Virus genome (UHGV): UHGV-0341487
Strand: one strand, 5' to 3'
DNA from: a virus
DNA length: 11,257 nt
Positions 229-11,257 of this stretch are shown one piece after another (positions within the stretch are counted from its first letter, which is position 1; every line of letters begins with the position of its first letter). The translations under genes were made by a program, and so were the position numbers. The notes beneath the pieces are model-generated. The model had not been told where the DNA came from, did not search any database, and saw only the letters and a program-made list of their open reading frames with translations.

Positions 229-229
229 A

Positions 230-589
230 TCAATCTCCTTTGGTACCAATGTTTACAGCCTGGCAAGCCTCTTTGAGCACCCAGTCAACAGCGTCTTTCC
301 ATGCTCCGGTTTCGACTGGCGGATTCTCACGCTTTACCTGTTCATAGAAACGCACTGCTTTAATCAATCCTTCTGGTGTCAGTGGCACAGGCGGGACAGT
401 GAATAAGGCCTGAATCTCATAGCTCGGCCTGTCGTTGCAATCCTCTTTTGTCGGGACATATTTCCAGTCACCAACCCACTGCTTCCCCTGAAAGTCTGTA
501 ACGCCTTTTTTCACGTAGCGATATCGCCATGCCACTGGTTTTGCCTGCCCTGCCTTTTCATGCCCTTCCTGATAATTAATCTCGCTCAT
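230..589 (-). CDS. Hypothetical phage protein (119 aa)
   Basis: ORF-track ORF; ATG at 589..587 overlaps stop of upstream small ORF (ATGA overlap). No recognisable motif. Confidence 0.55.
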   Translation of the reverse strand: MSEINYQEGHEKAGQAKPVAWRYRYVKKGVTDFQGKQWVGDWKYVPTKEDCNDRPSYEIQALFTVPPVPLTPEGLIKAVRFYEQVKRENPPVETGAWKDAVDWVLKEACQAVNIGTKGD

Positions 590-762
590 TCATCGCCCCA
601 CTCATCACAATATGCTTCGACCGGTGTTTTCCCTGCTTCATAATCATCACGCCATGCTTCAGCATCAGCGGCACTTCCACCGCGTAACTCTGCATAATCC
701 ATTAACAGTTCATGCCATTCTTCAAAACTGGCGTTATATTTAGTTGAACCAGAATCAGCCAT
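586..762 (-). CDS. Small acidic protein (58 aa), not in ORF track
   Basis: Found by manual translation: ATG at 762..760 preceded by GAGGAA, reads MADSGSTKYNASFEEWHELLMDYAELRGGSAADAEAWRDDYEAGKTPVEAYCDEWGDE, stop TGA at 588..586. Start overlaps stop of upstream gene (ATGGCTGA) and stop overlaps next start (ATGA), fitting the coupled chain. About 16 acidic versus 4-5 basic residues. Confidence 0.45.
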   Translation of the reverse strand: MADSGSTKYNASFEEWHELLMDYAELRGGSAADAEAWRDDYEAGKTPVEAYCDEWGDE

Positions 763-937
763 TTTGTTCTTCCTCTTCGTCTTTTATTTCGTGATATGAG
801 TAATTGCAGTAGTTAAAGAAAATATCTTTTGCTTCGTCATGTATTTCATCAGGCGTCGCATCATCATCCACTTCGATTTCATCCTCGAAATCTCCACCGG
901 CTATTCCCGTTTCAATAATTATTTTAAACTTTCGCAT
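755..937 (-). CDS. Small hyper-acidic protein (60 aa)
   Basis: ORF-track ORF, ATG at 937. About 20 Asp/Glu in 60 residues including DDD and EEEE runs. Upstream SD GGAGG is separated from the ATG by a GC hairpin (see findings). Confidence 0.5.
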   Translation of the reverse strand: MRKFKIIIETGIAGGDFEDEIEVDDDATPDEIHDEAKDIFFNYCNYSYHEIKDEEEEQNG

Positions 938-1030
938 TTAACTACCGCCCTTTCGGGCGGCCTCCTGATGTTCTGAAGGTGCAGAAATCCCTCCGGTTAA
1001 GGATTAAATTTTTAACAGAGCTAAATTTAA

Positions 1031-1387
1031 TTATTCAGTTCTGGATTTTGTCGCCCTGCGTATCCGCGCTTTCGCGTTACGCTCAATCTGAATTAACTTT
1101 TCTATATTTTTCCGCCTTTCCTGTTCCTCCTGGCGCAATAGCCTTACATCATCTGCCAGTCTGGTTTCTCTTTTCGCCACAGAGAGCATCCAGTCAAACG
1201 GCTCCACAACTGCACCGCAGATTTTACAGCGGACCTGACGCTCTTTTTCGTCAACCCGGACAGAAGCGTGATGGCAGTATGGTCTTTCCGATGGCTCATA
1301 AAGAAAATTAACCTGATTACGTGGGTCATCCTCTTTTACCGGAAATAAAACGATATTGCTTAACTCATCTTCTGGATTTATTTCCAC
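1031..1387 (-). CDS. Hypothetical protein with CxHH...CxxC putative zinc-binding motif and basic coiled-coil-like C-terminus (118 aa from GTG)
   Basis: ORF-track ORF 1031..1468 trimmed to GTG at 1387..1385, which sits 6 nt after AAGGAG (1399..1394) and 1 nt after the upstream stop TGA (1391..1389). The track's ATG at 1468 would overlap the upstream gene by 80 nt. Motif PYCHHASVRVDEKERQVRCKICG. Confidence 0.5.
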   Translation of the reverse strand: MEINPEDELSNIVLFPVKEDDPRNQVNFLYEPSERPYCHHASVRVDEKERQVRCKICGAVVEPFDWMLSVAKRETRLADDVRLLRQEEQERRKNIEKLIQIERNAKARIRRATKSRTE

Positions 1388-1388
1388 G

Positions 1389-1925
1389 TCACTCTCCTTT
1401 GATGCGAATGCCAGCGACGCGTGGCACATTAACTTCCACAATGCGCACAGTTGGTTTGTACATCTCAATTGCTGTCAGCCAGTCAGCTCCTGTCATGCGC
1501 TTTTCTGCATCGCCATTAGTCCACTGAACCGGTACACCAATAGCCTTCATCGCGATTTCTATTTCCCCGGCAATGGCGCTTTTTCCGCAACCAGTAAAAC
1601 CAGATACAACGACAAGAACTTCGCCCTTGGCCGGTTTTATTTCCCGCGCTTCCAGCTCTTTAACGCGCTCCTCGAGTTCGTAGACTCTGCATTGTTCTTT
1701 ATCATCAATCAGATATAACCCAAGACATTCGCTTTCTACCCAGCCACCGAAATCATGATCGTAACGCTCACATGAAAACTCACCGTCGCTGTCCTTTGTT
1801 GGGATGGTGTAGCTATCTAATGGGCCACCATACGTCGGCACATTTCCCAATGTCGGATGCTCAATCCACATGAAAAATGCACGTCCGGTTATAGGGCAAA
1901 TATCTGGTCGCCATTGGTTACTCAC
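1389..1925 (-). CDS. Walker A (P-loop) motif protein, about 178 aa
   Basis: ORF-track ORF 1389..1952 trimmed to GTG at 1925..1923, 6 nt after AGGAGG (1937..1932); GTGAGTAA overlaps the upstream stop. Strand-loop-helix VLVVVSGFTGCGKSAIAGEIEIAM contains GxxGxGKS, encoded at 1578..1601. Confidence 0.6.
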   Translation of the reverse strand: MSNQWRPDICPITGRAFFMWIEHPTLGNVPTYGGPLDSYTIPTKDSDGEFSCERYDHDFGGWVESECLGLYLIDDKEQCRVYELEERVKELEAREIKPAKGEVLVVVSGFTGCGKSAIAGEIEIAMKAIGVPVQWTNGDAEKRMTGADWLTAIEMYKPTVRIVEVNVPRVAGIRIKGE

Positions 1926-2217
1926 TGTTTGCCTCCTGAAAAATAACTGCATGCCCCAGCTTCTCCGCCAGCGCCAGTTCTGCCTTAGCGCCTGCTGACC
2001 GCTGCCAGCCTTTCAGCATGTAAATCGCATCAACACAACGAATCATTGCCATGCAAATATCCATGTAGTGTGGCTGTGTCAGCCCGTCCGGAAGTACTGC
2101 CGGGTTTAAGACTGTATGCCCTTCCCGTTTCAGTTCCTCTTCCGCATCGTGGAACGCCTCACGGTTGAAATTTTTATACCCGGTCATCGGACCAGCGATA
2201 TAAATCCTCACCCTCAC
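1918..2217 (-). CDS. DUF4406-like / nucleoside 2-deoxyribosyltransferase-fold protein (99 aa)
   Basis: N-terminal RIYIAGPMTG followed by NP and a GW..S.GA..E pattern, characteristic of the DUF4406 / nucleoside deoxyribosyltransferase-like fold (recalled, not searched). GTG start at 2217 overlaps upstream stop (GTGA); AGGAGG 7 nt upstream. Confidence 0.6.
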   Translation of the reverse strand: MRVRIYIAGPMTGYKNFNREAFHDAEEELKREGHTVLNPAVLPDGLTQPHYMDICMAMIRCVDAIYMLKGWQRSAGAKAELALAEKLGHAVIFQEANSE

Positions 2218-2636
2218 GCCATCACCTCCTGAAAATTACCCTGATAGAACGCCAGCACACGCTGCATAGCTTCGCTCTTCCGGCACTCGCGACAGATTAT
2301 GTTCTGACGCCTGTCGTAGCGGCGTATTTCTCCGTCTGGTAATGACCAGATAAGGTCCGGATCAACCGCAGATGGTTTCTTCAGCTTTGCCCTTGAGAGC
2401 TTTTTACGGGTATTTTGCCAATCCTTACGCGCCTGTTCAGACGGGAATAACCCGTAACCAGAGTTGTATACATCGCCACTGGCAACCAGCTCTCTGGCCA
2501 GAACGCTCATCAGATATCTTGTTGCCCCAGTTTTAGCTTCCAGTTGTCGTAACGTCTCGCGTCCACTCTGGCGTACGAGTTCAAGAACCTGCCCTTTAAT
2601 TTTTTCCCGCTCTTCTTGTGTAAAAACTTTTGCCAC
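2214..2636 (-). CDS. Hypothetical protein (140 aa), possibly winged-helix-like N-terminus
   Basis: ORF-track ORF; GTG start at 2636 preceded by AGGAGG (2646..2641). Sits where lambdoid phages usually carry a helicase loader, but is too short and shows no ATPase motif. Confidence 0.5.
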   Translation of the reverse strand: MAKVFTQEEREKIKGQVLELVRQSGRETLRQLEAKTGATRYLMSVLARELVASGDVYNSGYGLFPSEQARKDWQNTRKKLSRAKLKKPSAVDPDLIWSLPDGEIRRYDRRQNIICRECRKSEAMQRVLAFYQGNFQEVMA

Positions 2637-2676
2637 AAGCCCTCCTGAAAATTACCTCATGACCAGAAATTAACAC

Positions 2677-3747
2677 TTACCCCCTGAAGCCCGGCGGAAT
2701 TTCGTTATCCGGTTCAGAAATATGATTCACACAACGCTGGTTGTTCGTGCTGCTTACCGGGAGCAACCAGGGGTTCTCAAAATTCCGGTCCGGTCCAAAA
2801 AACGTCGTCGCTCGCTGAACAAATTCCGTTCCCGTTTTCCCGGTAGCCGCCAAGTATCTTGCGTAACGCCTCACGCCATCCAGCATGGCCTCTGGTGGCA
2901 CCCCCTCGCGTAATCTGGCCTTCCAGGCACTGAAAGCGGATTTCTTCGGGTTTGCTCCGGCACGCAACGGGTACTCCCGCCAGACCTGTTCGAACACATC
3001 CGGATAATCCACTCGTCCCACAGACTGCCCGGTGCTTTCCGGGACTACCCGATCGGCTTCCCGCTGAATGGCGGAATCGGCTTCAGGCTGCTGCAGTTGG
3101 TGTGATTGCTCCGGCCTTGCGGTCATCACCTGCTGCACAGCGCCCGAATCGGCTTTCAGCGCATACGCTGAATCGGCTTCCGGTGTCGTGCCTGCTGGCT
3201 GACCAGGATTGACGGTCTGAACATCCCCTGCCTGGTTCGTGGCGTTTTTTACGCCATGGACCATAGTGTTTTGATCTTCTTGATCTGTATCTTTATCTGT
3301 ATCTTTATCTGTCGTGACTCGTCGTGACATGTGCGTGACATTTCGTGACGCGCCGTGACAATCGCCATTTTGTTCCCGCTTTCTTTCCCTCTCTCGCTGC
3401 GCCCTCTTGCGCTCTGCAGGAGATTTTGCGGTTTGCGAAATATTGCCGTTGTCCTCTTTAAGCACCTGGCGTTTTTCCCATCCAGTGATTAAATCACCAT
3501 CAAGTACCCGCCCCTGCATCGTCTGCAAAATTGAATCAATTACCTCTTCTGTCACGTCGAGCGCACTTGCCAAATCTTCTGTCGTGACATCAATGTGACC
3601 TCGCGTGACATTTCGTGACGCGCTCACCAGGAGGTGGATATACACTGCCATCACTGTTGCAATTGGCTGCCCTGACACCCTGGCAATTGTTCGCCACTTA
3701 GGGTCATTTGGCATGTCATGCCATAATCTGAGCCAGGCGTTAGCCAT
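2677..3747 (-). CDS. Phage replication initiator (lambda O-like functional analogue) with origin iterons inside its coding sequence
   Basis: ORF-track ORF 2677..3753; start moved to ATG at 3747..3745, 5 nt after GAGGTG. Position directly downstream of the cro-like/YdaT-like genes. Two clusters of CGTGAC iterons lie inside the gene and are mirrored in the protein as RNVTRGHIDVTT and RNVTHMSRRVTTDKDTDKDTD. Confidence 0.7.
   Translation of the reverse strand: MANAWLRLWHDMPNDPKWRTIARVSGQPIATVMAVYIHLLVSASRNVTRGHIDVTTEDLASALDVTEEVIDSILQTMQGRVLDGDLITGWEKRQVLKEDNGNISQTAKSPAERKRAQRERERKREQNGDCHGASRNVTHMSRRVTTDKDTDKDTDQEDQNTMVHGVKNATNQAGDVQTVNPGQPAGTTPEADSAYALKADSGAVQQVMTARPEQSHQLQQPEADSAIQREADRVVPESTGQSVGRVDYPDVFEQVWREYPLRAGANPKKSAFSAWKARLREGVPPEAMLDGVRRYARYLAATGKTGTEFVQRATTFFGPDRNFENPWLLPVSSTNNQRCVNHISEPDNEIPPGFRG
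3283..3359. repeat. Origin-like repeat block: two tandem 12-bp ATCTGTATCTTT units plus a third diverged unit (3307-3318) that overlaps the first of five CGTGAC iterons at about 10-bp spacing
   Basis: Seen in sequence: atctgtatcttt at 3283-3294 and 3295-3306; cgtgac at 3313, 3323, 3334, 3344, 3354. Helical-turn spacing puts the sites on one face of the DNA. Confidence 0.65.
3583..3623. repeat. Second iteron cluster (CGTGAC/TGTGAC, four copies at 10-11 bp spacing), with a 20-bp exact copy of an iteron pair from the first cluster
   Basis: cgtgacatttcgtgacgcgc occurs at 3334-3353 and again at 3604-3623; additional copies at 3583 and 3594; an inverted gtcacg at 3551. Confidence 0.6.
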
Positions 3748-3818
3748 ACTCACCTCTTTTGATACCGAATCTTTTTACTCACAAATTGCCGGAAGTGATC
3801 CGGTATGAATATTGCGAG

Positions 3819-4244
3819 TCAATGCACAGCCACAATATTTCCTGCAGGGCCACCACGATTCATCTGGTTGAAACCAGCGATCGCCACTGCGACAAAATCA
3901 TCAGCGTCTCTCACCAGTCGTTCCCGCGTCTCCACTAGTTCCCGAAAATAGGCTGAGCTATGACTGCGCATTCGGGCCACCAGCAGAGGTGGCATTGCTT
4001 TTTCGATAGCTGGTAACAACGCCTGAATTTTTTTAACCGCATCAGGGGTGTCTTTCTCCACCCAGCGGAAAATTTTCTGAGTATTGCGAGCTAGGGCTTC
4101 CGGATGGCTGTCGTCATACAGTTCCGGGAACGTCATTCCCAGCTCGAAATACGCTTTGGTAATTTTCGCAGCCGGTACTTTTTCGCCGTCCGGATGCGCC
4201 CAGGCATTCATCGCCATGCGGATATGTTCATGTTTGATTTTCAT
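3819..4244 (-). CDS. YdaT-like prophage protein (CII-position gene), 141 aa
   Basis: Begins MKIKHEHI and sits immediately downstream of the cro-like gene with an ATGA start/stop overlap, as ydaT follows ydaS in Rac. Family assignment is from memory of the YdaT N-terminus and gene position, not a search. Confidence 0.55.
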   Translation of the reverse strand: MKIKHEHIRMAMNAWAHPDGEKVPAAKITKAYFELGMTFPELYDDSHPEALARNTQKIFRWVEKDTPDAVKKIQALLPAIEKAMPPLLVARMRSHSSAYFRELVETRERLVRDADDFVAVAIAGFNQMNRGGPAGNIVAVH

Positions 4245-4468
4245 GAATCACTCTTCCTTTTGTCCCGGGTGGTATCCTTCTTTTTGTAAAGCTCTGGGTT
4301 CAAAGATAATTTTCCCTTGGAGTATGCAGCAGCTTCCGCAGCTCTCCCTTTCGGAACTATTTCACCGGGGCGCTTACGCCACATGTAAATAGCTTCGCGG
4401 GTTATCCCATAAAAATCAGCGACCCTCTGAACAGAGCCAAAAAACTGAACAAGTTCATCAACTCGCAT
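4241..4468 (-). CDS. Cro/DicC-like small HTH regulator (75 aa)
   Basis: Divergent from the repressor gene; FGSxxxxAxxxGIxxxxxYxWxxxxxxVPxGRA pattern resembles DicC/Cro-type proteins; basic C-terminal tail; SD GGAGAG 5 nt upstream of ATG at 4468. Confidence 0.7.
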   Translation of the reverse strand: MRVDELVQFFGSVQRVADFYGITREAIYMWRKRPGEIVPKGRAAEAAAYSKGKLSLNPELYKKKDTTRDKRKSDS

Positions 4469-4564
4469 TTTACTCTCCTAAAATCTAAGTATTTTTAGAT
4501 TACAGGATAATTTTTTTTAGGTCAATGCAATCTAAAATAATTTATATTCAACTCGCGGGAGAAA
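4469..4564. promoter_or_regulatory. Divergent immunity control region (OR-like) with two 20-bp operators
   Basis: Operator 1 at 4482-4501, aatctaa-gtattt-ttagatt, with perfect 7-bp inverted arms. Operator 2 at 4529-4548, aatctaa-aataat-ttatatt, with one arm mismatch. On the minus strand a TTGACC -35 and a -10 inside operator 1 could drive cro; exact promoter hexamers are inferred. Confidence 0.6.
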
Positions 4565-5212
4565 ATGATGGAAAGCCTTGGCATCAGGCTTAAGAAACTC
4601 AGAAAAGATAAGGGACTCACCCAAGTAGAACTGGGTAAGCTTTCAGGCGTGACTGGGGTTACTATAGGGTACTGGGAGAAAGATCTAAACGAACCCGGCA
4701 GCAAAGCTCTAAGTAAGTTAGCCCAGGCATTAGGAACTACTGAGTCCTATCTCCTGTATGGAGTATCGTCTCCTGAACTATCTTTTGTGCAGAGCAATCC
4801 AGGCACCAAGATCCCCTACTTTTCGTGGGGTGACGCGATTTCTTTCCTAATCTTAGAAGGAGAGAAAACAATGGGAAATGTCGATAGGATCACCACATTC
4901 TTTGATGTAGTGGAAGGTGATTTTGCCGTTTCAATGCCTGATGACACTATGCATAACCCCTCAGGGTCACCAAGTATCCCGGTTGGTGCCACTGTGATCC
5001 TAAGACCAGGAGAGAGTTATAAAAATGGCAGTATCGTCGCTGTAATAGTTCCAGATCCACTTACAAATGAACCGTCTATGACTATAAAAAAATTAGTTAT
5101 TGATGGAAAACTTGTGTATTTAAGCCCTCTCAATCCGCGCTATCAATCATCCTTGCTTACGCCAGAGTGTAAAATTGTTGCCGTAGCAAAAGGTGTGCAG
5201 TTCAACCTATAA
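4565..5212 (+). CDS. cI-type prophage repressor (HTH_XRE N-domain plus S24 LexA-like autopeptidase C-domain)
   Basis: N-terminal LTQVELGKLSGVTGVTIGYWE helix-turn-helix; C-terminal AVSMPDD (Ser nucleophile context) and TIKKLV (Lys) typical of the LexA/cI self-cleaving domain. The ATG at 4568 has better SD spacing than 4565, so the true start may be 4568. Confidence 0.85.
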   Translation: MMESLGIRLKKLRKDKGLTQVELGKLSGVTGVTIGYWEKDLNEPGSKALSKLAQALGTTESYLLYGVSSPELSFVQSNPGTKIPYFSWGDAISFLILEGEKTMGNVDRITTFFDVVEGDFAVSMPDDTMHNPSGSPSIPVGATVILRPGESYKNGSIVAVIVPDPLTNEPSMTIKKLVIDGKLVYLSPLNPRYQSSLLTPECKIVAVAKGVQFNL

Positions 5213-5233
5213 CCCTGCTATGTCCTTGAACTT

Positions 5234-5260
5234 AAGGTCGGTTATGCCGACCTTTTTTTT
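5234..5260 (+). terminator. Intrinsic terminator downstream of the repressor gene
   Basis: aaggtcgg-ttatg-ccgacctt stem-loop (8-bp stem) followed immediately by an 8-nt T run. Confidence 0.7.
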
Positions 5261-5310
5261 AAATTAATTTAGATTCCCCTTGACTATAAAACTAAATACT
5301 TTTAGATTTA
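5261..5310 (+). promoter_or_regulatory. pL-like early-left promoter with overlapping operator (OL)
   Basis: TTGACT at 5280-5285, 17-bp spacer, TAGATT at 5303-5308. Operator aaactaa-atactt-ttagatt at 5289-5308 is near-identical to OR operator 1; an extra TTAGATT half-site at 5269-5275. Confidence 0.55.
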
Positions 5311-5489
5311 TTGCATACCAACCCACCCCGCCCCATAGAACGCCGGGCAATACTTCGAGTTACCAGGCAGTGGTCAGGGGTTAAGTAGCCAGCCCGAGGC
5401 GTAAGAACATGACGGCAGGGTTCAACTTTAATAACTATGCAGCAGGTTTTTGTTCCGCTACCCCGGCGTTAAGGGGAAATGAGGTCAAC

Positions 5490-5645
5490 ATGGATACTAT
5501 CGATCTTGGCAACAACGAATCTCTGGTGTACGGCGTGTTTCCCAACCAGGACGGCACATTCACCGCGATGACGTATACCAAAAGCAAAACGTTTAAAACC
5601 GAAAATGGTGCCCGTCGCTGGCTGGAAAGAAACTCAGGTGAGTGA
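5490..5645 (+). CDS. ydfA: YdfA-like small protein (51 aa)
   Basis: ORF-track ORF 5409..5645 trimmed to ATG at 5490, 5 nt after GAGGT; 51 aa equals the YdfA length and it is the first gene of a ydfABC-dicF-dicB-ydfD-ordered operon. Symbol assigned by synteny and size from memory. The upstream ATG at 5409 is an alternative start. Confidence 0.5.
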   Translation: MDTIDLGNNESLVYGVFPNQDGTFTAMTYTKSKTFKTENGARRWLERNSGE

Positions 5646-5646
5646 T

Positions 5647-5775
5647 ATGGATTTCGACACAATCATGAAAAAGGCTTACGAAGAATACTTCGAAGGCCTT
5701 ACCGAAGGCGAAGAAGCTCTCAGCTTCAGTGAGTTTAAACAGGCGCTTTCCAGCTCGGCAAAATCTAACGGCTGA
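5647..5775 (+). CDS. ydfB: YdfB-like small protein (42 aa), not in ORF track
   Basis: Manual translation MDFDTIMKKAYEEYFEGLTEGEEALSFSEFKQALSSSAKSNG; ATG 1 nt after the upstream stop with AGGTGAG SD; size and position match ydfB. Confidence 0.5.
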   Translation: MDFDTIMKKAYEEYFEGLTEGEEALSFSEFKQALSSSAKSNG

Positions 5776-5804
5776 TAAGCGAAGCAGCACCGCGAGGAAT
5801 CAGT

Positions 5805-6023
5805 ATGCAGAAACGAGAACCCGTCATCATCGCGCCAGACTATACCGATGATGAACTTTATGAGTGGATGCGCCAGAAAATTAATGCAGCGCAGGATCTG
5901 AAATGGGCCAATGAAGCCAGGGCTAAGCAGGCTGAAAATCTGTCCGCTCTGGAGCAGGATATCACCAGGCTGGAAAAAGCAGCGGCATTAAGCATTGCCA
6001 GAATGATTACATACCAGCGTTAA
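5805..6023 (+). CDS. ydfC: YdfC-like protein (72 aa)
   Basis: ORF-track ORF with GAGGAA SD; 72 aa and position match ydfC of the dicB operon. Confidence 0.6.
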   Translation: MQKREPVIIAPDYTDDELYEWMRQKINAAQDLKWANEARAKQAENLSALEQDITRLEKAAALSIARMITYQR

Positions 6024-6363
6024 TAGCTAACCAACGAAGCTAAGGTTGGTAATTAAGGAGTTCTCCACGGGTGAGGTGGAGTGCGTGCGCCGGACACGGG
6101 TGAGCATCCGGCACTGACAGTTTACTGAAAGGATATTTCCATGAAAAGTCAGACCATAACGCGAAAGCGCACGGCGAGGTAGCTGGTTCATAGATAGCCT
6201 GTCGTTAAATTTTCGTCGACCGTGCGCTTCCGGTTGTGGCACTACACGAAATGGCGCGGCGGTAAGTATGGCGGGGTTATTCCTTCCCCGTTGAGGACAC
6301 CGGGTTGTCAGGTTGACCATACGCTTAAGTGACAACCCCGCTGCAACGCCCTCTGTTATCAAT

Positions 6364-6421
6364 TTTCTGGTGACGTTTGGCGGTATCAGTTTTACTCCGT
6401 GACTGCTCTGCCGCCCTTTTT
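6364..6421 (+). ncRNA. dicF: DicF small regulatory RNA (ftsZ-targeting antisense sRNA) with its own intrinsic terminator
   Basis: Sequence tttctggtgacgtttggcggtatcagttttactccgtgactgctctgccgcccttttt matches my recollection of E. coli DicF; ends in GC stem plus T run; located between ydfC and dicB exactly as in the Qin dicB operon. Confidence 0.8.
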
Positions 6422-6590
6422 AAAGTGAATTTTGTGATGCGGTGAATGCGGCTAAGCGCACGCGGAACAGTTAAAACCAAAAACAGTGTTATGGGTGGAT
6501 TCTCTGTATCCGGCGTTAATTGTTAACTGGTTAACGTCACCTGGAGGCACCAGGCACCGCATCACAAAACTCATTGTTGAGGGCGCGATA

Positions 6591-6779
6591 ATGAAAACGT
6601 TATTACCAAACGTTAATACGTCTGAAGGTTGTTTTGAAATTGGTGTCACTATCAGTAATCCTGTATTTACTGAAGATGCCATTAACAAAAGAAAACACGA
6701 ACGGGAGTTATTAAATAAAGTATGCATTGTTTCAATGCTGGCCCGTTTACGTTTGATGCCAAAAGGATGTGCACAATGA
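6591..6779 (+). CDS. dicB: DicB cell-division inhibitor (62 aa)
   Basis: C-terminal 62 aa of ORF-track ORF 6486..6779, MKTLLPNVNTSEGCFEIGVTISNPVFTEDAINKRKHERELLNKVCIVSMLARLRLMPKGCAQ, matches recalled DicB nearly residue for residue; GAGGG SD upstream of ATG 6591. Confidence 0.85.
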   Translation: MKTLLPNVNTSEGCFEIGVTISNPVFTEDAINKRKHERELLNKVCIVSMLARLRLMPKGCAQ

Positions 6780-6967
6780 ATCCAGTATTTGCACTTATTC
6801 TGACGGTTTTTCTTGTTTCCGGAGAGCCAGTTGATATTGCAGTCAGTGTTCACAGAACAATGCAGGAATGTATGGCAGCAGCAACCGAACAGAAAATTCC
6901 AGGCAACTGTTATCCGGTCGATAAAGTTATTCACCAGGATAATAACGAAATCCCGGCAGGTCTTTAA
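6776..6967 (+). CDS. ydfD: YdfD-like lysis/toxic protein (63 aa) with N-terminal hydrophobic segment
   Basis: Internal ATG of ORF-track ORF 6722..6967 overlaps the dicB stop (ATGA); MNPVFALILTVFLVSGEPVDIAVSVHRTMQECM matches recalled YdfD; same order as in Qin. Confidence 0.75.
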   Translation: MNPVFALILTVFLVSGEPVDIAVSVHRTMQECMAAATEQKIPGNCYPVDKVIHQDNNEIPAGL

Positions 6968-7060
6968 AACAGTTCCGTAATAAATATCCGGTTTCATTCT
7001 TATATGCCAGCAATGGCAGGGATTTGTTCATCCTTAAATCTGTCATGAGGTTAAAACAAA

Positions 7061-9532
7061 ATGAGTAAAGTCTTTATTTGCGCCGCTATTCCTGACGAAC
7101 TGGCAACAAGGGAAGAAGGCGCTGTGGCTGTAGCCACAGCCATTGAAGCTGGCGACGAACGCCGTGCTCGAGCAAAATTTCACTGGCAGTTCCTGGAACA
7201 TTATCCGGCTGCTCAGGACTGCGCTTATAAATTTATTGTCTGCGAGGATAAACCTGGCATACCCCGCCCTGCCCTCGATTCATGGGATGCTGAATATATG
7301 CAGGAAAACCGCTGGGATGAGGAGTCTGCTTCTTTTGTCCCGGTTGAGACTGAATCCGATCCGATGAACGTCACTTTTGACAAGCTGGCCCCTGAAGTAC
7401 AGAACGCTGTCATGGTTAAGTTCGACACATGTGAAAACATCACCGTTGATATGGTTATTAGCGCACAGGAATTGTTGCAGGAAGACATGGCAACATTCGA
7501 CGGACATATCGTTGAAGCGTTGATGAAAATGCCAGAAGTTAACGCCATGTATCCGGAGCTTAAGTTGCACGCCATTGGGTGGGTTAAGCATAAATGTATT
7601 CCTGGTGCTAAATGGCCCGAAATTCAGGCAGAGATGCGCATCTGGAAAAAACGTCGCGAAGGTGAACGCAAGGAAACCGGAAAATACACGTCTGTTGTTG
7701 ATCTCGCCCGCGCCAGAGCCAATCAACAGTACACTGAAAATTCAACAGGAAAAATCAGCCCGGTCATTGCTGCCATTCATCGCGAATACAAGCAGACATG
7801 GAAAACACTGGATGACGAACTGGCCTACGCTCTCTGGCCTGGTGATGTGGATGCCGGAAACATTGACGGCAGCATCCATCGCTGGGCAAAAAAAGAAGTT
7901 ATCGACAACGACCGCGAAGACTGGAAGCGTATCTCGGCATCAATGCGCAAACAGCCTGATGCCCTTCGCTACGACCGCCAAACTATTTTTGGCCTTGTCC
8001 GTGAGCGTCCGATCGACATTCACAAAGATCCCGTAGCACTGAACAAATATATCTGCGAATACCTGACGACAAAGGGCGTGTTTGAGAATGAAGAAACAGA
8101 CCTGGGCACTGTTGATGTTCTCCAGTCATCAGAAACACAAACTGATGCAGTGGAAACTGAGGTATCTGATATCCCAAAAAATGAAACCGCGCCGGAAGCT
8201 GAACCATCTGTAGAGCGTGAGGGGCCGTTCTATTTCCTCTTCGCAGATAAGGACGGAGAAAAATACGGTCGCGCAAACAAACTTTCTGGTCTGGATAAGG
8301 CACTGGCTGCTGGCGCCACTGAAATCACAAAAGAAGAATATTTTGCCCGAAAAAATGGCACATACACGGGCTTACCGCAAAATGTAGATACCGCTGAAGA
8401 TTCAGAACAACCAGAGCCGATAAAAGTTACCGCTGACGAAGTAAACAAAATTATGCAGGCAGCCAATATCAGCCAGCCTGACGCCGATAAGTTGCTTGCT
8501 GCATCACGTGGTGAATTTGTTGAAGGGATTAGTGACCCGAATGATCCGAAATGGGTTAAGGGGATCCAGACCCGCGATTCTGTGAACCAGAACCAGCATG
8601 AATCGGAACGGAACTACCAAAAAGCGGAACAAAACAGCACAAATGCGTTACAAAACGAGCCAGAAACGAAACAGCCTGAACCAGTGGCGCAACAGGAAGT
8701 GGAAAAAGTCTGCACCGCCTGCGGTCAGACCGGCGGCGGCAACTGCCCTGATTGTGGCGCGGTGATGGGCGACGCAACATACCAAGAAACATTCGATGAA
8801 GAGTATCAGGTTGAAGTTCAGGAAGATGATCCGGAGGAAATGGAAGGCGCTGAACATCCACACAAGGAGAACACTGGCGGCAATCAGCATCACAATAGCG
8901 ATAATGAAACTGGCGAGACGGCAGATCACCCAATTAAGGTGAACGGTCATCACGAAATCACATCCACCAGCAGGACGTGTGACCATCTAATGATCGACCT
9001 TGAAACCATGGGAAAAAATCCTGATGCCCCGATCATCTCAATAGGTGCAATATTTTTCGATCCGCAAACCGGAGATATGGGACCGGAATTTAGTAAGACT
9101 ATCGATCTGGAAACTGCTGGCGGAGTCATTGATCGGGACACCATTAAATGGTGGCTTAAGCAATCACGCGAAGCGCAATCTGCCATTATGACCGATGAAA
9201 TCCCGTTAGATGATGCACTGTTACAATTGCGGGAATTTATCGACGAAAACTCCGGTGAATTTTTTGTTCAGGTCTGGGGAAATGGAGCCAACTTCGACAA
9301 CACGATTTTGCGCCGTTCATACGAACGGCAGGGGATCCCCTGCCCGTGGCGTTACTACAACGATCGCGATGTACGCACAATCGTTGAGCTGGGGAAAGCC
9401 ATAGACTTCGATGCCAGAACGGCTATTCCATTCGAAGGTGAGCGCCATAATGCACTTGATGACGCTCGTTACCAGGCAAAATACGTTTCAGCTATCTGGC
9501 AAAAACTGATCCCGAGTCAGGCTGATTTTTAA
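7061..9532 (+). CDS. Large multidomain phage protein (823 aa): unrecognised N-terminal domain, acidic/Gln-rich linker with CxxC-x7-CxxC zinc ribbon, C-terminal DEDDh-type 3'-5' exonuclease domain
   Basis: Long ORF with GAGG SD. C-terminal about 180 aa (nt 8987-9529) carry MIDLETMG (Exo I, D-x-E), GNGANFDNT (Exo II) and HNALDDARYQAKY (Exo III, His plus Asp). Zinc ribbon CTACGQTGGGNCPDCG near nt 8709-8762. Occupies the slot between dicB/ydfD and xis/int. Confidence 0.85.
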   Translation: MSKVFICAAIPDELATREEGAVAVATAIEAGDERRARAKFHWQFLEHYPAAQDCAYKFIVCEDKPGIPRPALDSWDAEYMQENRWDEESASFVPVETESDPMNVTFDKLAPEVQNAVMVKFDTCENITVDMVISAQELLQEDMATFDGHIVEALMKMPEVNAMYPELKLHAIGWVKHKCIPGAKWPEIQAEMRIWKKRREGERKETGKYTSVVDLARARANQQYTENSTGKISPVIAAIHREYKQTWKTLDDELAYALWPGDVDAGNIDGSIHRWAKKEVIDNDREDWKRISASMRKQPDALRYDRQTIFGLVRERPIDIHKDPVALNKYICEYLTTKGVFENEETDLGTVDVLQSSETQTDAVETEVSDIPKNETAPEAEPSVEREGPFYFLFADKDGEKYGRANKLSGLDKALAAGATEITKEEYFARKNGTYTGLPQNVDTAEDSEQPEPIKVTADEVNKIMQAANISQPDADKLLAASRGEFVEGISDPNDPKWVKGIQTRDSVNQNQHESERNYQKAEQNSTNALQNEPETKQPEPVAQQEVEKVCTACGQTGGGNCPDCGAVMGDATYQETFDEEYQVEVQEDDPEEMEGAEHPHKENTGGNQHHNSDNETGETADHPIKVNGHHEITSTSRTCDHLMIDLETMGKNPDAPIISIGAIFFDPQTGDMGPEFSKTIDLETAGGVIDRDTIKWWLKQSREAQSAIMTDEIPLDDALLQLREFIDENSGEFFVQVWGNGANFDNTILRRSYERQGIPCPWRYYNDRDVRTIVELGKAIDFDARTAIPFEGERHNALDDARYQAKYVSAIWQKLIPSQADF

Positions 9533-9590
9533 TGTTCAACCCTAATTGCCGCTAACCGTATATAGTTAGCGGCGGTTATGAGATATAGCT

Positions 9591-9794
9591 ATGAGCAGCT
9601 TATTTTTAACCGAAGATGAATTGCTAATATTAACGGGCTGCAAATATGCAAGCCACCAGCGAAAATGGTTAATGGAAAACGGGCTTCCGTTCTATACCAA
9701 TCGTAGTGGCAAACCGATTGTCAGCCGGGATCTATTTACCTGCAATAAAACTTTACCACCACGCGAGGTAGAGCCGAATTTTGGTGCGATCTGA
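9591..9794 (+). CDS. xis: Excisionase-like protein (DUF4224-type small DNA-binding protein)
   Basis: 67-aa ORF immediately upstream of int; its stop overlaps the int start (ATGA at 9792-9796); LTEDELLILTGCKYASHQRKWL resembles the small proteins found upstream of lambdoid integrases (from memory). Confidence 0.7.
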   Translation: MSSLFLTEDELLILTGCKYASHQRKWLMENGLPFYTNRSGKPIVSRDLFTCNKTLPPREVEPNFGAI

Positions 9795-10819
9795 TGGGAA
9801 GACGAAGGAAAAATCCTGAACACGAAAAATTACCTCCAAATGTATACCCAAATAAATATAGTTATGTATGGAAACCAACATCCAGAGAATCTGTCACACT
9901 AACCGCCATCAAGGATGGTTTAGCTGCTTTATGGAAAAAGTATGAGGAAACTGTAAATAATCGCGATCGTGCAATGACATTCGGTCGCTTGTGGGAAAAA
10001 TTCCTCGCCAGCGCCTATTACAGTGACCTTAGTCCAAGAACACAAAAAGATTATCTGCAACATCAAAAAAAGTTGCTTGCCGTATTCGGTAAGGTACCAG
10101 CGGATTCCATAAAACCAGAACACATCCGTCGATACATGGACAAAAGAGGGGAGCAGAGTAAAACGCAAGCCAACCATGAAAAAAGCAGTATGTCCCGTGT
10201 TTACAGTTGGGGGTATGAGCGAGGGTACGTGAAGGCTAACCCATGTGCAGGTGTAAGTAAATTCAAGGCCAAAAACCGCGAACGATATGTAACCGACAAA
10301 GAATACCAGGCAGTATTAAGCGTTGCACCTCTTCCTGTTTTTATCGCAATGGAAATTGCCTATCTGTGTGCAGCGAGGGTTTCCGATGTGTTATCGCTGA
10401 AATGGGAACAGATTGGAAACGACGGGATATTCATCCAGCAAGGGAAAACCGGAAAAAAACAGATAAAAGCATGGAGTCCACGATTACAGGCAGCGATCGA
10501 AAAAGCAAAACAGTTGCCAAAATCTGCCTATGTGATCAGCAATCAATACGGCAACCGATATATGTACAAAGGCTTTAACGAAATGTGGGTAGATGCAAGA
10601 AATCGTGCTGGAAAAATTTCAGGTATTTTAACCGACTTCACCTTTCATGATCTGAAGGCGAAAGGAATTTCAGACTATGAAGGAAGCAGCCGGGATAAGC
10701 AACTTTTCTCTGGTCACAAAACCGAAGGGCAAGTGCTAATCTATGACAGGAAGGTTAAAGTTTCACCAACACTTGATGTCCCGTTACCTGAAAATATTCC
10801 AAGAAAATATTCCAAGTAA
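9794..10819 (+). CDS. int: Tyrosine site-specific integrase, lambda Int family
   Basis: N-terminal MGRRRKNPEHEKLPPNVY parallels lambda Int MGRRRSHERRDLPPNLY; catalytic-region residues are alignable (AARVSDV Arg, QQGKTG Lys, FHDLK, LFSGH, LIYDRK Tyr). Adjacent to a tRNA gene. Confidence 0.9.
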   Translation: MGRRRKNPEHEKLPPNVYPNKYSYVWKPTSRESVTLTAIKDGLAALWKKYEETVNNRDRAMTFGRLWEKFLASAYYSDLSPRTQKDYLQHQKKLLAVFGKVPADSIKPEHIRRYMDKRGEQSKTQANHEKSSMSRVYSWGYERGYVKANPCAGVSKFKAKNRERYVTDKEYQAVLSVAPLPVFIAMEIAYLCAARVSDVLSLKWEQIGNDGIFIQQGKTGKKQIKAWSPRLQAAIEKAKQLPKSAYVISNQYGNRYMYKGFNEMWVDARNRAGKISGILTDFTFHDLKAKGISDYEGSSRDKQLFSGHKTEGQVLIYDRKVKVSPTLDVPLPENIPRKYSK

Positions 10820-10828
10820 TTCCAAGTG
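10791..10828. repeat. Tandem direct repeats (AAAATATTCCAAG x2 plus partial ATTCCAAG) spanning the int stop codon; candidate recombination arm-type or accessory-protein sites
   Basis: 13-mer at 10791-10803 and 10804-10816, partial copy 10819-10826; lies between the int C-terminus and the tRNA junction. Confidence 0.5.
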
Positions 10829-10871
10829 TGATTTTTGTCACTGACTTAATGATGTGTAAGTGATTGAATTT

Positions 10872-10961
10872 TGGCGGAGAGAGGGGGATTTGAACCCCCG
10901 GTGGAGTTGCCCCCACTCCGGTTTTCGAGACCGGTCCGTTCAGCCGCTCCGGCATCTCTCC
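10872..10961 (-). tRNA. serU: tRNA-Ser (anticodon CGA), class II tRNA with long variable arm and encoded CCA
   Basis: Reverse complement reads GGAGAGATGCCGGAGCGGCTGAACGGACCGGTCTCGAAAACCGGAGTGGGGGCAACTCCACCGGGGGTTCAAATCCCCCTCTCTCCGCCA: 7-bp acceptor stem GGAGAGA/TCTCTCC, anticodon loop CUCGAAA, TpsiC arm GGGGGTTCAAATCCCCC. Confidence 0.93.
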
Positions 10962-11054
10962 GTTCAGATGGTTGCCATGATGCCAGGAAATTTGGCATTT
11001 TAACAGTCCCTGTCCGTGCAATTTTGTTCAAGTGACGAGTTTGCGAGCAAAGCG

Positions 11055-11257
11055 ATGATAAAGTGGCCCTGGAAAACGAATGAAGCTGGCCGGGATATGG
11101 CGCTGCCATGGGATGACGCGCTGACGATCCCTGTTCTGGCTAATCTTAAGCCGGATGAACAAGCGAAACTGGTTCAGCTGGCGGATCGTTTTTTACAGCA
11201 AAAACGCCTGGTTCCACTGCGGGGTTTCGAACTCGATCCCCTGAAAAACGCGCGCAT
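11055..11257 (+). CDS. mtfA: MtfA-like protein (Mlc titration factor A / DgsA anti-repressor), N-terminal part; continues beyond window end
   Basis: ATG at 11055 opens a frame reading [67 protein letters not shown], which matches the recalled MtfA N-terminus (MIKWPWK...[16 protein letters not shown]); no stop before the window end. Confidence 0.85.

What the first reader, a model, noticed from the sequence alone, without database searches (positions are those of the whole stretch)
5261..6967. Complete dicB-operon-like module (ydfABC, DicF sRNA, dicB, ydfD) under a cI-type repressor in a tRNA-Ser-integrated prophage
The gene order and sizes (51, 42, 72 aa, sRNA, 62, 63 aa) reproduce the Qin dicB operon, here driven from a pL-like promoter whose operator matches those at OR. 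In E. coli K-12 the operon is controlled by DicA, a short HTH-only repressor with no peptidase domain. Here the repressor is a full-length cI-type protein with an S24 autopeptidase domain, so the module should be SOS-inducible: DNA damage would release DicF (ftsZ antisense), DicB (MinC-dependent division inhibitor) and YdfD (lysis protein) together.
Basis: partly seen in the sequence, partly recalled or inferred. Interest (0 to 1): 0.5.

Follow-up and report, generated by a model that had tools for sequence, protein, structure and literature searches.

The report
Prophage dicB cell-division-inhibitor operon
This is the well-known dicB/DicF cell-division-blocking operon, here the early-left operon of an intact-looking lambda-like prophage, but its repressor has lost the residues needed for self-cleavage, so the predicted DNA-damage (SOS) induction is unlikely.

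Summary
ydfA (51 aa), ydfB (42), ydfC (72), DicF, dicB (62) and ydfD (63) lie exactly where described. The block 5452-7060 is 96.7% identical to the Qin dicBF operon of E. coli K-12, and DicF is identical. It sits behind a pL-like promoter whose operator matches those at OR, in a ~42-kb prophage at tRNA-Ser(CGA).

The module is not new. Parts of it occur in 4757 of 5426 complete E. coli genomes, it is annotated in RefSeq, and it is carried by phages such as Tritos and mEp460_ev081.

The SOS inference is not supported. The 215-aa repressor keeps the lambda-cI/LexA S24 fold. However, the catalytic Ser is Thr (DDTM) and the Ala-Gly scissile bond is Ala-Ile. All 12 close relatives readable at both positions share both changes, and more distant relatives keep GDSM and AG (106 of 107). 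No LexA box and no Rem homologue occur in the prophage. How the repressor is inactivated remains open; an antirepressor or a stochastic Cro switch is most likely.

One by-product: the pL transcript starts with a ~115-130-nt structured leader RNA (5311-5440). It is absent from Rfam, conserved across Enterobacterales prophages, and shows compensatory base changes.

The parts
4241..4468 (-). cro-like gene (75 aa), divergent from the repressor; first gene of the pR operon. It is followed by a YdaT/CII-like gene (3819-4244) and a replication initiator gene (2677-3753).
   Evidence: Pfam P22_Cro E 1.2e-9; YdaT_toxin E 1.1e-9. PHROG CII-like activator E 3.5e-45; PHROG replication initiation protein E 1.8e-256.
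4482..4548 (.). OR region. Contains two operators: AATCTAAGTATTTTTAGATT (4482-4501, perfect palindrome) and AATCTAAAATAATTTATATT (4529-4548). A putative pR lies on the minus strand (TTGACC 4526-4521, 17 nt, TAATCT 4502-4497). pR is read by eye and its -10 is weak.
   Evidence: operator pattern: 4 matches against 0.73 expected. pR is an inference from the sequence; it was not listed by the promoter scan.
4565..5212 (+). Immunity repressor, 215 aa (214 if started at the second Met, as in RefSeq). It has a P22 c2-like HTH plus an S24-fold C-terminal domain. That domain has Thr128 in place of the Ser nucleophile, Lys175 kept, and Ala91-Ile92 in place of the Ala-Gly scissile bond.
5234..5262 (+). 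Intrinsic terminator after the repressor gene (9-bp stem, then a T-run). It separates the repressor transcript from pL.
5256..5308 (+). OL/pL. The promoter is TTGACT-17-TAGATT (5280-5308). Operator OL1 (5289-5308, 1 mismatch) covers the spacer and the -10. A weaker site (5256-5275, 3 mismatches) abuts the -35.
5311..5440 (+). Conserved structured leader RNA at the 5' end of the pL transcript; core about 5313-5432. It has an outer helix and a long two-part hairpin capped by the conserved sequence CAAUACNNCGAGUUAYC. It also has invariant stretches UAAGUAGCCAGCCNGAGGC and GAACAUGA(C/A)GGC. Function unknown.
   Evidence: No Rfam match.
5452..5489 (+). Start of the block shared with Qin. It holds GTTCCGC, a hairpin CCCC-GGCGTTAA-GGGG (5461-5476), and the ydfA ribosome-binding site.
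5490..5645 (+). ydfA (51 aa, DUF1391)
   Evidence: 51/51 identical to K-12.
5647..5775 (+). ydfB (42 aa)
   Evidence: 40/42.
5805..6023 (+). ydfC (72 aa)
   Evidence: 70/72.
6024..6363 (+). Untranslated DicF precursor region, about 97% identical to K-12. In K-12, RNase III and RNase E cut here to give the 190-nt and 53-nt DicF species.
   Evidence: PMC10448788 for the processing, which was shown in K-12 and is inferred here.
6364..6421 (+). DicF sRNA with its intrinsic terminator; identical to K-12 dicF.
6591..6779 (+). dicB (62 aa)
   Evidence: 60/62; Q36H, I44V.
6776..6967 (+). ydfD (63 aa, DUF1482; annotated as lysis protein in K-12)
   Evidence: 57/63.
7061..10819 (+). Rest of the early-left operon: an 823-aa exonuclease (C-terminal Rv2179c-like 3'-5' exonuclease domain), xis (DUF4224, 9591-9794) and a tyrosine integrase (9794-10819).
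10872..10961 (-). tRNA-Ser(CGA). Its 3' end (10872-10902) is the att core, repeated at the other prophage end in E. coli.

Best explanation
**What it is.** The region is the early-left (pL) operon of an apparently complete ~42-kb lambdoid prophage integrated into the 3' end of tRNA-Ser(CGA).

**Repressed state.** In the lysogen, a 215-aa cI-like repressor binds 20-bp palindromic operators (AATCTAA-N6-TTAGATT). One overlaps the -10 of pL. Others lie at OR, between the repressor and cro genes. Binding shuts off both early operons. This is inferred from the sequence anatomy.

**After derepression.** The pL transcript begins with a conserved structured leader RNA. It then encodes YdfA, YdfB and YdfC.
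- A 340-nt untranslated stretch follows. [quoted passage not shown]
- A fraction of transcripts read through into dicB, ydfD, the exonuclease, xis and int.
- The two-transcript pattern and the processing were shown for the 97%-identical K-12 operon and are inferred here.
- DicF blocks ftsZ translation. DicB sends MinC to the septum. YdfD is annotated as a lysis protein in K-12. All three are established for K-12.
- The module is therefore this phage's counterpart of lambda Kil, a host division block during early lytic development.

**Inactivating the repressor.** The C-terminal domain has the S24 fold but Thr in place of the Ser nucleophile and Ile in place of the scissile Gly. Both changes are fixed across its clade. 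The domain most likely serves only for dimerisation and cooperativity, not for RecA-stimulated self-cleavage.

Derepression then depends on something else. The most likely routes are an antirepressor, possibly encoded elsewhere (as Rem acts on DicA and GfoA on Gifsy repressors), or stochastic Cro-driven switching. This last step is inference.
For: **Module identity:**

**Promoter, operators and terminators:**

**Complete prophage.** It has tail, HK97-type head, terminase, lysis, Q, RusA, replication, int and xis genes. An att repeat gives a length of 41,989 bp.

**The phage is probably active.** Window 1-11075 is 100% identical to E. coli ST131-type genomes. The adjacent host gene mtfA is only 68.7% identical to E. 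coli mtfA. Its product is 93% identical to an Enterobacter sichuanensis fragment. This suggests recent spread between genera.

**K-12 behaviour of the operon.** There are 1146-nt and 1608-nt transcripts, RNase III/E processing, DicA/DicC acting as a cI/Cro-like switch, and the Rem antirepressor (PMC10448788). K-12 dicBF is not induced by SOS inducers (PMC5069750).

**Repressor.**
- HMMER alignments to lambda cI chains put Ser149 opposite Thr128. The Lys changed in the K192A mutant chains falls opposite Lys175.
- The MAFFT family alignment puts VQAG opposite GDAI.
- Motif table: of 13 close clusters, the 12 readable at each position have DDTM and lack Ala-Gly. All 107 more distant ones have GDSM, and 106 have VQAG.
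- Ser123, the nearby alternative nucleophile, is not conserved in the clade (E, K or I).
- The AF2 model has pLDDT 82.9. Its C-terminal domain superposes on the lambda cI C-terminal domain at TM 0.80-0.82 and rmsd 2.2-2.5 A. It also matches LexA and UmuD.

**No SOS link in cis.** The best LexA-box-like site in the whole prophage matches only 11 of 20 consensus positions. There is no Rem homologue.

**Requirement for Ser-Lys and Ala-Gly.** S24 self-cleavage needs a Ser-Lys dyad acting on an Ala-Gly bond (PMC13148647).
Against: - No experiment was done. Thr can act as a nucleophile in some hydrolases, and the general-base Lys is retained. Slow or RecA-dependent cleavage at a non-canonical bond therefore cannot be excluded from sequence alone.
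- No antirepressor was identified in this prophage, so the alternative induction route is hypothetical.
- The pR promoter is weak by consensus.
- Expression of dicB and the downstream genes requires read-through of the DicF terminator. This was shown only in K-12.
Confidence: 0.75

Rival explanations
1. The repressor is a working S24 autopeptidase. DNA damage activates RecA, the repressor cleaves itself, and DicF, DicB and YdfD are released together as an SOS output.
For: - The domain is a genuine S24 homologue above Pfam's threshold, with the right fold.
- The catalytic Lys is kept.
- Thr has a hydroxyl group, and P1 Ala is mostly kept.
- NCBI names some members 'LexA family'.
Against: - Nucleophile Ser to Thr and scissile Gly to Ile/Met/Thr/Val are coupled and fixed in the whole clade. 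Sister proteins keep GDSM and, with one exception in 107, AG.
- The Gly before the catalytic Asp-Ser is also lost (GDSM becomes DDTM).
- From memory, not tested here: in LexA and lambda cI, substitutions of the scissile Gly (LexA G85D) give non-inducible repressors.
Confidence: 0.1
2. The element is a domesticated, defective prophage remnant like Qin. The operon is then kept for host benefit (phage exclusion by DicB, metabolic control by DicF) rather than as a phage early operon.
For: - The operon is 97% identical to that of cryptic Qin.
- DicB protects K-12 against lambda-type infection (PMC6832061).
- The integrase is frameshifted in one E. coli copy.
Against: - In the window, int (341 aa), xis, the exonuclease, cro, the cII-like gene and the replication gene are all intact.
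- The E. coli counterpart carries a full set of head, tail, lysis and Q genes.
- Identical DNA sits next to a non-E. coli mtfA.
- Viable phages carry the same operon (PMC10448788).
Confidence: 0.1
3. The leader RNA at 5311-5440 is a put-like processive antiterminator. It rides on RNA polymerase and carries it through the DicF terminator and on to int, replacing the missing N protein.
For: - It starts at the pL transcription start, as HK022 putL does (PMC9378689).
- No N gene lies between pL and ydfA.
- It has invariant single-stranded stretches and covarying helices.
- A terminator sits inside the operon.
Against: - In Arsenophonus the same leader is followed by a classical boxA/boxB nut site and an Arg-rich N-like gene. 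It is therefore not simply an N substitute.
- The covariance model finds nothing in HK022.
- Its size and architecture differ from put.
- Qin lacks the leader, yet dicB is still expressed in K-12.
Confidence: 0.15

Closest known systems
dicBF operon of cryptic prophage Qin, E. coli K-12 (ydfABC-dicF-dicB-ydfD under DicA/DicC)
   Same: - Same genes, order and sizes.
- 96.7% nucleotide identity from 38 nt upstream of ydfA to beyond ydfD.
- Identical DicF.
- Same position relative to a divergent repressor/cro pair.
   Different: - The repressor, operators and promoter are unrelated. DicA is 135 aa and shares only the HTH at 30% identity.
- A ~140-nt conserved leader precedes the shared block here and is absent from Qin.
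- Downstream, the exonuclease, xis and int are intact here. In Qin they are disrupted (ydfE, intQ pseudogenes, IS2).
- No Rem homologue was found.
dicB/DicF modules of other lambdoid (pro)phages: O157:H7 Sakai Sp11 and Sp12, CP-933M/O/P, phages Tritos, mEp460_ev081, PhiR42_1, vB_EcoM-606R7
   Same: - Same early-left position, downstream of the immunity repressor and upstream of exonuclease-xis-int.
- DicF is detected by Rfam in Sp11, Sp12 and Tritos (PMC5069750).
   Different: - Those checked mostly have short repressors of 112-139 aa.
- Only 606R7, 689R5, the O157 F8798 locus and 474 E. coli genomes have this 214-aa type.
Lambda cI / LexA / UmuD (peptidase family S24) self-cleaving repressors
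   Same: - HTH plus S24-fold C-terminal domain.
- Conserved Lys.
- 40-45% identical to canonical relatives that carry GDSM and AG.
- Fold match to the lambda cI C-terminal domain at TM 0.8.
   Different: - Thr replaces the Ser nucleophile.
- Ala-Ile replaces Ala-Gly.
- A 4-6-residue insertion precedes the Lys strand.
- All three differences are clade-wide.
Antirepressor-controlled, non-cleavable prophage repressors (Gifsy GfoR/GftR with GfoA; DicA with Rem)
   Same: It lacks an Ala-Gly bond, and the operon it controls is the same as DicA's (PMC10448788).
   Different: - Those repressors are short and have no S24 domain; this one keeps the whole domain.
- No antirepressor or LexA-controlled gene was found in the prophage.
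Lambda Kil in the pL operon
   Same: A host cell-division inhibitor expressed from the early-left operon of a lambdoid phage. This rests on established knowledge and on PMC3961180, which was listed but not read.
   Different: The genes are unrelated. Here two inhibitors (an sRNA and a 62-aa protein) act on ftsZ mRNA and on MinC.
HK022 putL RNA (for the leader at 5311-5440)
   Same: A structured RNA encoded immediately downstream of pL, starting at or near the transcription start (PMC9378689).
   Different: - About 115-130 nt with a multi-helix layout, against about 70 nt and two stems for putL.
- No sequence or model match to HK022.
- It coexists with nutL and N in Arsenophonus phages.

Membership tests
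dicBF operon (Qin type) | Gene order ydfA-ydfB-ydfC-dicF-dicB-ydfD on one strand | tested here: met
   Sizes are 51/42/72 aa, sRNA, 62/63 aa. RefSeq annotates the identical DNA the same way.
dicBF operon (Qin type) | DicF RNA: match to Rfam RF00039 above the gathering score, with terminator hairpin | tested here: met
   76.7 bits against 48, model positions 1-52 of 52. Identical to K-12.
dicBF operon (Qin type) | DicB protein family (PF05358) | tested here: met
   E 5.1e-40, full length. 60/62 identical to K-12 DicB.
dicBF operon (Qin type) | Repression by DicA acting at dicBp | tested here: not met
   The repressor is a different protein (30% identity, HTH only). The promoter/operator DNA is unrelated.
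dicBF operon (Qin type) | DicF pairs with ftsZ mRNA; DicB acts through MinC/ZipA; expression causes filamentation | not testable with these tools
   The host ftsZ and minC genes are not in the window. Inferred from identity with the K-12 genes (PMC10448788, PMC5069750).
Peptidase S24 self-cleaving repressors (LexA / lambda cI) | S24 fold in the C-terminal domain | tested here: met
   Pfam PF00717, 41.2 bits against a cutoff of 23.3. Foldseek: lambda cI C-terminal domain TM 0.80-0.82, plus LexA and UmuD.
Peptidase S24 self-cleaving repressors (LexA / lambda cI) | Nucleophilic Ser (lambda cI Ser149, LexA Ser119) in the G-D/N-S-M motif | tested here: not met
   Thr128 in DDTM. The same holds in all 12 close clusters where the motif is readable.
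Peptidase S24 self-cleaving repressors (LexA / lambda cI) | General-base Lys (lambda cI Lys192) | tested here: met
   Lys175 in TIKKL. It aligns with the residue changed in the K192A mutant chains.
Peptidase S24 self-cleaving repressors (LexA / lambda cI) | Ala-Gly (or Cys-Gly) scissile bond in the cleavage-site region | tested here: not met
   Ala91-Ile92 lies opposite lambda Ala111-Gly112. There is no AG or CG dipeptide between residues 66 and 115 (read from the sequence). The rest of the clade has S-I, A-M, A-T or A-V.
Peptidase S24 self-cleaving repressors (LexA / lambda cI) | RecA-stimulated self-cleavage | not testable with these tools
   Needs a biochemical or genetic assay.
SOS (LexA) regulon member or LexA-controlled antirepressor system | LexA box (CTGT-N8-ACAG) in a promoter region of the prophage | tested here: not met
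   The window has only 1-mismatch sites, at chance level. In the rest of the prophage (E. coli copy), the one exact site lies inside the portal gene and the best 20-mer matches 11 of 20 positions.
Lambdoid prophage integrated at a tRNA gene | Tyrosine integrase and excisionase next to the tRNA; att core repeated at the other end; complete structural and lysis genes | tested here: met
   The far end and the late genes were seen only in the identical E. coli prophage.
HK022 put antiterminator RNA (considered for the leader) | ~70-nt two-stem RNA right after pL, with similarity to putL/putR | tested here: not met
   The position is similar. However, model R1 finds nothing in the two HK022 stretches searched, 21000-29000 and 27500-32500, which include pL/putL. 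The sequences differ.

The most novel reading that the evidence does not exclude
Two things in this locus may be undescribed.

(1) The 5' leader of the pL transcript (5311-5440) may be a new family of phage cis-acting structured RNA.
- It occurs at the start of early-left operons behind at least four unrelated repressor types, in Escherichia, Shigella, Serratia, Pectobacterium, Superficieibacter, Symbiopectobacterium, Arsenophonus and Phlomobacter.
- It has invariant loops that suggest binding to a conserved host factor such as RNA polymerase.

(2) The repressor may belong to a clade of 'pseudo-S24' cI proteins that have given up self-cleavage. If so, these phages, and the DicF/DicB output, would respond to a signal other than the SOS response.
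Probability: 0.45. Interest if true: 0.55.

Novelty: already known. Interest (0 to 1): 0.3.

Why it matters
As stated, the finding is ordinary. The dicBF operon is a common, annotated cargo of lambdoid prophages, and this copy is nearly identical to the K-12 one.

The check still matters for two reasons.

1. It shows that an 'S24 domain' hit cannot be read as 'SOS-inducible'. This repressor clade has the fold but not the catalytic Ser or the Ala-Gly bond. What signal turns on DicF and DicB is still an open question in the field. An intact phage with this repressor would be a cleaner system for that question than cryptic Qin.

2. The pL transcript carries a widely conserved structured leader RNA of unknown function. 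It is in no RNA family database and is directly testable.

Tried and rejected
- **Rem-type antirepressor.** The two small ORFs next to the YdfU-like gene in the E. coli copy of the prophage show no similarity to K-12 Rem. PHROG hits for small ORFs of the prophage gave only 'unknown function'.
- **LexA boxes.** None are credible in the window or the whole prophage.
- **Ser123 as an alternative nucleophile.** Rejected, because it is not conserved in the clade.
- **Experimental data on inducibility.**
  - A paper search for phage vB_EcoS-689R5 found nothing. That record includes host flanks, so it is a predicted prophage, not an induced virion.
  - I tried to locate the O157 Sakai prophage with this repressor. 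Sp11 and Sp12 turned out to have short repressors, and I stopped there.
- **Leader RNA.**
  - Single-sequence folding gave no signal (z = +0.28 and -0.11).
  - RNAalifold on the MAFFT alignment found only an invariant 3-bp stem.
  - The structure emerged only from separate folds of divergent copies and from pair counting.
  - Comparison with HK022 putL gave no match.
  - No small ORF explains the leader. The 34-aa TTG ORF at 5280-5384 starts inside the -35 hexamer.
- **Literature on non-cleavable S24 repressors.** Searches gave nothing specific to this clade.
- **Tool failures.** Two scripts failed because locus L002 was not in the data folder.
Full report
**1. What is in the sequence**

| Element | Coordinates | Size | Family evidence |
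|---|---|---|---|
| ydfA | 5490-5645 | 51 aa | DUF1391 |
| ydfB | 5647-5775 | 42 aa | PHROG 2061 |
| ydfC | 5805-6023 | 72 aa | PHROG 1744 |
| DicF | 6365-6416 | sRNA | RF00039, 76.7 bits vs gathering score 48, whole model |
| dicB | 6591-6779 | 62 aa | PF05358, E 5e-40 |
| ydfD | 6776-6967 | 63 aa | DUF1482 |

An alignment with K-12 Qin shows that homology starts 38 nt upstream of the ydfA ATG (window 5452). It runs past ydfD at 96.7% identity. DicF and YdfA are identical, and DicB matches at 60 of 62 residues. Everything upstream of 5452 (leader, promoter, operators, repressor) is unrelated to Qin. This is a typical lambdoid mosaic joint.

**2. Surroundings**

- The repressor gene (4565-5212, +) is divergent from a P22-Cro-like gene (4241-4468, -). 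A YdaT/CII-like gene and a replication initiator gene follow cro.
- A strong intrinsic terminator (5234-5254 plus T-run) ends the repressor transcript. It is followed by a sigma-70-type promoter, TTGACT-17-TAGATT (5280-5308).
- The palindrome AATCTAA-N6-TTAGATT occurs perfectly at 4482-4501. It occurs with one mismatch at 4529-4548 and at 5289-5308, the latter covering the pL -10. A 3-mismatch copy lies at 5256-5275. That is four sites against 0.73 expected, all in the two intergenic regions flanking the repressor. The 'operator shared by OL and OR' is real.
- Downstream of ydfD come an 823-aa exonuclease, a DUF4224 excisionase and a 341-aa tyrosine integrase. Then comes tRNA-Ser(CGA) on the other strand.
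- Window 1-11075 is 100% identical to a prophage in E. coli ST131-type genomes. In one of these the element continues through replication, nin-region, Q, lysis, terminase, HK97-type head and tail genes. It ends at a 31-bp repeat of the tRNA 3' end, giving 41,989 bp.

The region is therefore the early-left operon of an apparently complete lambdoid prophage.

**3. How common and how known**

- The 1.7-kb region matches 4757 of 5426 complete E. coli genomes. It matches 2051 of them over at least 80% of its length. RefSeq annotates ydfA, ydfB, ydfC, dicB and ydfD there.
- This immunity region is present at 80% coverage or more in 474 genomes, including O157:H7 at 91.7% identity. It is also in two phage-collection records.
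- DicF plus dicB sit behind other, short repressors in Sakai Sp11 (112 aa), Sakai Sp12 (123 aa) and phage Tritos (139 aa). PhiR42_1 carries the same block behind a DicA-type repressor (135 aa).
- The literature already states that dicBF occurs in several lambdoid prophages. It also describes DicA/DicC as a cI/Cro-like switch and reports viable phages carrying the operon (PMC5069750; PMC10448788).

The module itself is therefore already known.

**4. The repressor and the SOS claim**

The protein has HTH_3 (47.8 bits) and Peptidase_S24 (41.2 bits, cutoff 23.3) domains. An AlphaFold model (pLDDT 82.9) matches full-length lambda cI. It matches the cI C-terminal domain at TM 0.80-0.82 and rmsd 2.2-2.5 A. 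It also matches LexA and UmuD. Its N-terminal domain matches P22 c2 at TM 0.96. It is a cI-type protein by fold.

The features that define self-cleavage are missing:
- HMMER alignments to five lambda cI chains all place EVEGN-S-MTAPTGS over SMPDD-T-MHNPSGS. Ser149 therefore corresponds to Thr128.
- The Lys replaced in the K192A mutant chains aligns with Lys175, which is kept.
- In a family alignment, lambda FSHVQAGMFS and the canonical relatives' SWVQAGxFT lie over FSWGDAISFL. Ala-Gly has become Ala91-Ile92.

A motif table of the 120 best homologues splits cleanly:

| Group | Identity to this repressor | Nucleophile motif | Scissile site |
|---|---|---|---|
| P0001-P0013 (Escherichia, Salmonella, Yersinia, Sodalis, Symbiopectobacterium) | 49-100% | DDTM in the 12 readable | No Ala-Gly in the 12 readable |
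| P0014-P0120 | 45% or less | GDSM in all 107 | VQAG in 106 |

- One of the close clusters could not be read at each position: a truncated protein for the nucleophile motif and a fragment for the scissile site.
- The nearby Ser123 is E, K or I in other clade members, so it is not a hidden nucleophile.
- S24 self-cleavage requires the Ser-Lys dyad acting on an Ala-Gly bond (PMC13148647).
- No LexA box occurs in the window or in the whole prophage. No Rem homologue is present.
- A Yersinia member of the clade has an ANT-domain protein in its pR operon. That proves nothing for this phage.

I conclude that the domain is most likely retained for dimerisation and cooperativity. The prediction of SOS inducibility does not follow. 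I put about 10% on residual RecA-dependent cleavage.

**5. Most likely mechanism**

Shown by sequence:
- the promoter and operator layout
- the operon content
- the DicF terminator in mid-operon

Shown in K-12 for 97%-identical DNA, and inferred here (PMC10448788; PMC6832061):
- a 1146-nt transcript ending at DicF and a 1608-nt read-through transcript reaching ydfD
- RNase III and RNase E processing of DicF
- DicF acting on ftsZ and manX mRNAs
- DicB acting with MinC
- filamentation on derepression

Inferred: in this intact phage the module acts as lambda Kil does, blocking host division early in lytic growth. The trigger is an antirepressor or stochastic Cro switching rather than repressor self-cleavage.

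**6. A by-product: the pL leader**

- A search with the immunity region showed that only its last ~150 nt (window ~5308-5460) is widespread. It occurs in 3707 of 5426 genomes, independent of the repressor.
- The same element follows racR in K-12 Rac. It follows a DicA-like gene in phage pPE4 and a canonical GDSM repressor in Arsenophonus. In each case it starts right after the -10 of a TTGAC-type promoter.
- An exact-pattern scan found it in Arsenophonus, Phlomobacter, Serratia, Symbiopectobacterium, Pectobacterium, Superficieibacter, Escherichia and Shigella genomes. It is also in more than 120 IMG/VR viral contigs.
- Single-sequence folding and RNAalifold on the MAFFT alignment gave nothing.
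- Independent folds of divergent copies converge on one architecture:
  - an outer helix
  - a long two-part hairpin capped by the conserved CAAUACNNCGAGUUAYC
  - invariant stretches UAAGUAGCCAGCCNGAGGC and GAACAUGA(C/A)GGC
- Counting that structure on the MAFFT alignment gives 74.5% paired cells, against 45% or less when the partners are slid. It gives 104 double-change cells against 17-31. Two pairs switch G-C to A-U (28:4 and 17:15) without a single break.
- A covariance model finds one copy in the window (5311-5440, 110 bits). It finds none elsewhere in the prophage, none in Qin and none in HK022.
- With 69 distinct sequences the figures hold: 75.5% paired against 53% or less, and 182 double-change cells against 37-62.

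Caveats:
- The structure was derived from one member.
- The model-fitted alignments lean towards that structure.
- The outer helix is only ~60% paired.
- Three short helices are invariant or show no double changes, so they are uninformative.

There is no Rfam match at E up to 1.

In Arsenophonus the leader is followed by boxA/boxB and an Arg-rich N-like gene. It is therefore not simply a substitute for N. Its function is unknown. A role on the transcription complex or on transcript stability is a guess.

**7. Host**

The last 200 nt of the window encode the start of MtfA. At the DNA level it is only 68.7% identical to E. coli mtfA. The protein is 93% identical to an Enterobacter sichuanensis fragment and 64% identical to E. 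coli MtfA. An 11-kb stretch identical to an E. coli prophage next to a non-E. coli gene suggests very recent transfer between genera. That argues the phage is active.

**8. Verdict**

- Novelty of the finding as stated: already known.
- Interest: 0.3. This rests mainly on the pseudo-S24 repressor clade and the undescribed leader RNA.

Noticed in passing
window 5311-5440 (+): A conserved structured leader RNA sits at the very start of the pL transcript. It is shared by prophages with unrelated repressors (Rac, pPE4, Arsenophonus phages). It occurs in 3707 of 5426 E. coli genomes, in eight genera and in more than 120 viral contigs. It shows compensatory base changes and has no Rfam family. Function unknown.
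   Followed up: partly
window 11055-11257 (+): The host gene next to the tRNA (the start of mtfA) is only 68.7% identical to E. coli mtfA. Its product is closest to an Enterobacter sichuanensis fragment (93%). Yet the prophage DNA up to 11075 is 100% identical to that of E. coli ST131-type genomes. The host is probably not E. coli, and the phage has probably moved between genera recently.
   Followed up: partly
window 6428-6568 (+): The spacer between the DicF terminator and dicB gives a sub-threshold Rfam match to the Salmonella sRNA candidate STnc100 (38.8 bits, gathering score 47, E 1.4e-6, model positions 21-154 of 206). This spacer may be part of a conserved RNA.
   Followed up: no
window 5461-5476 (+): A hairpin, CCCC-GGCGTTAA-GGGG, lies just before the ydfA ribosome-binding site. 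It is shared with Qin and Rac, and has variant stems and loops in Serratia, Pectobacterium and Superficieibacter. In Arsenophonus phages a boxA/boxB nut site occupies the same position. It may be a nut-like or translational control element.
   Followed up: no
window 7061-9532 (+): The 823-aa 'exonuclease' combines a long N-terminal region shared with phage exonuclease VIII-type proteins and a C-terminal Rv2179c-like 3'-5' exoribonuclease domain (residues 642-813, E 1.5e-67). This is not a lambda Exo or RecE nuclease domain.
   Followed up: no
L005 3001-5022 (E. coli O157:H7 F8798): The O157:H7 copy of the same immunity region (91.7% identical) is followed by a ydfA-like gene, dicB and a ydfD-like gene. 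It has no ydfB, no ydfC and no Rfam DicF match. The module exists in a DicF-less form behind this repressor.
   Followed up: partly
L057 335-1006 (Yersinia contig carrying repressor relative P0010): A Yersinia prophage with a repressor of the same Thr/no-Ala-Gly clade encodes an ANT/pRha-domain (antirepressor-type) protein in its pR operon. No counterpart was seen in the present prophage.
   Followed up: no
L011 4748-5412 (Arsenophonus nilaparvatae contig): The order here is: canonical S24 repressor, the same leader RNA, boxA (CGCTCTTTAAC), boxB (CGCTGAAAAAGCG), then a 114-aa protein with an Arg-rich N-terminal motif (ARRRRHERRKAKQ). This is a lambda-N-type antitermination unit downstream of the leader.
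   Followed up: partly
window 5409-5645 (+); L006 9110-9346: Phage-collection records annotate an N-terminally extended ydfA ORF (78 aa, starting inside the leader RNA) as 'head-DNA stabilization protein D'. This looks like a mis-annotation. RefSeq calls the 51-aa form.
   Followed up: no
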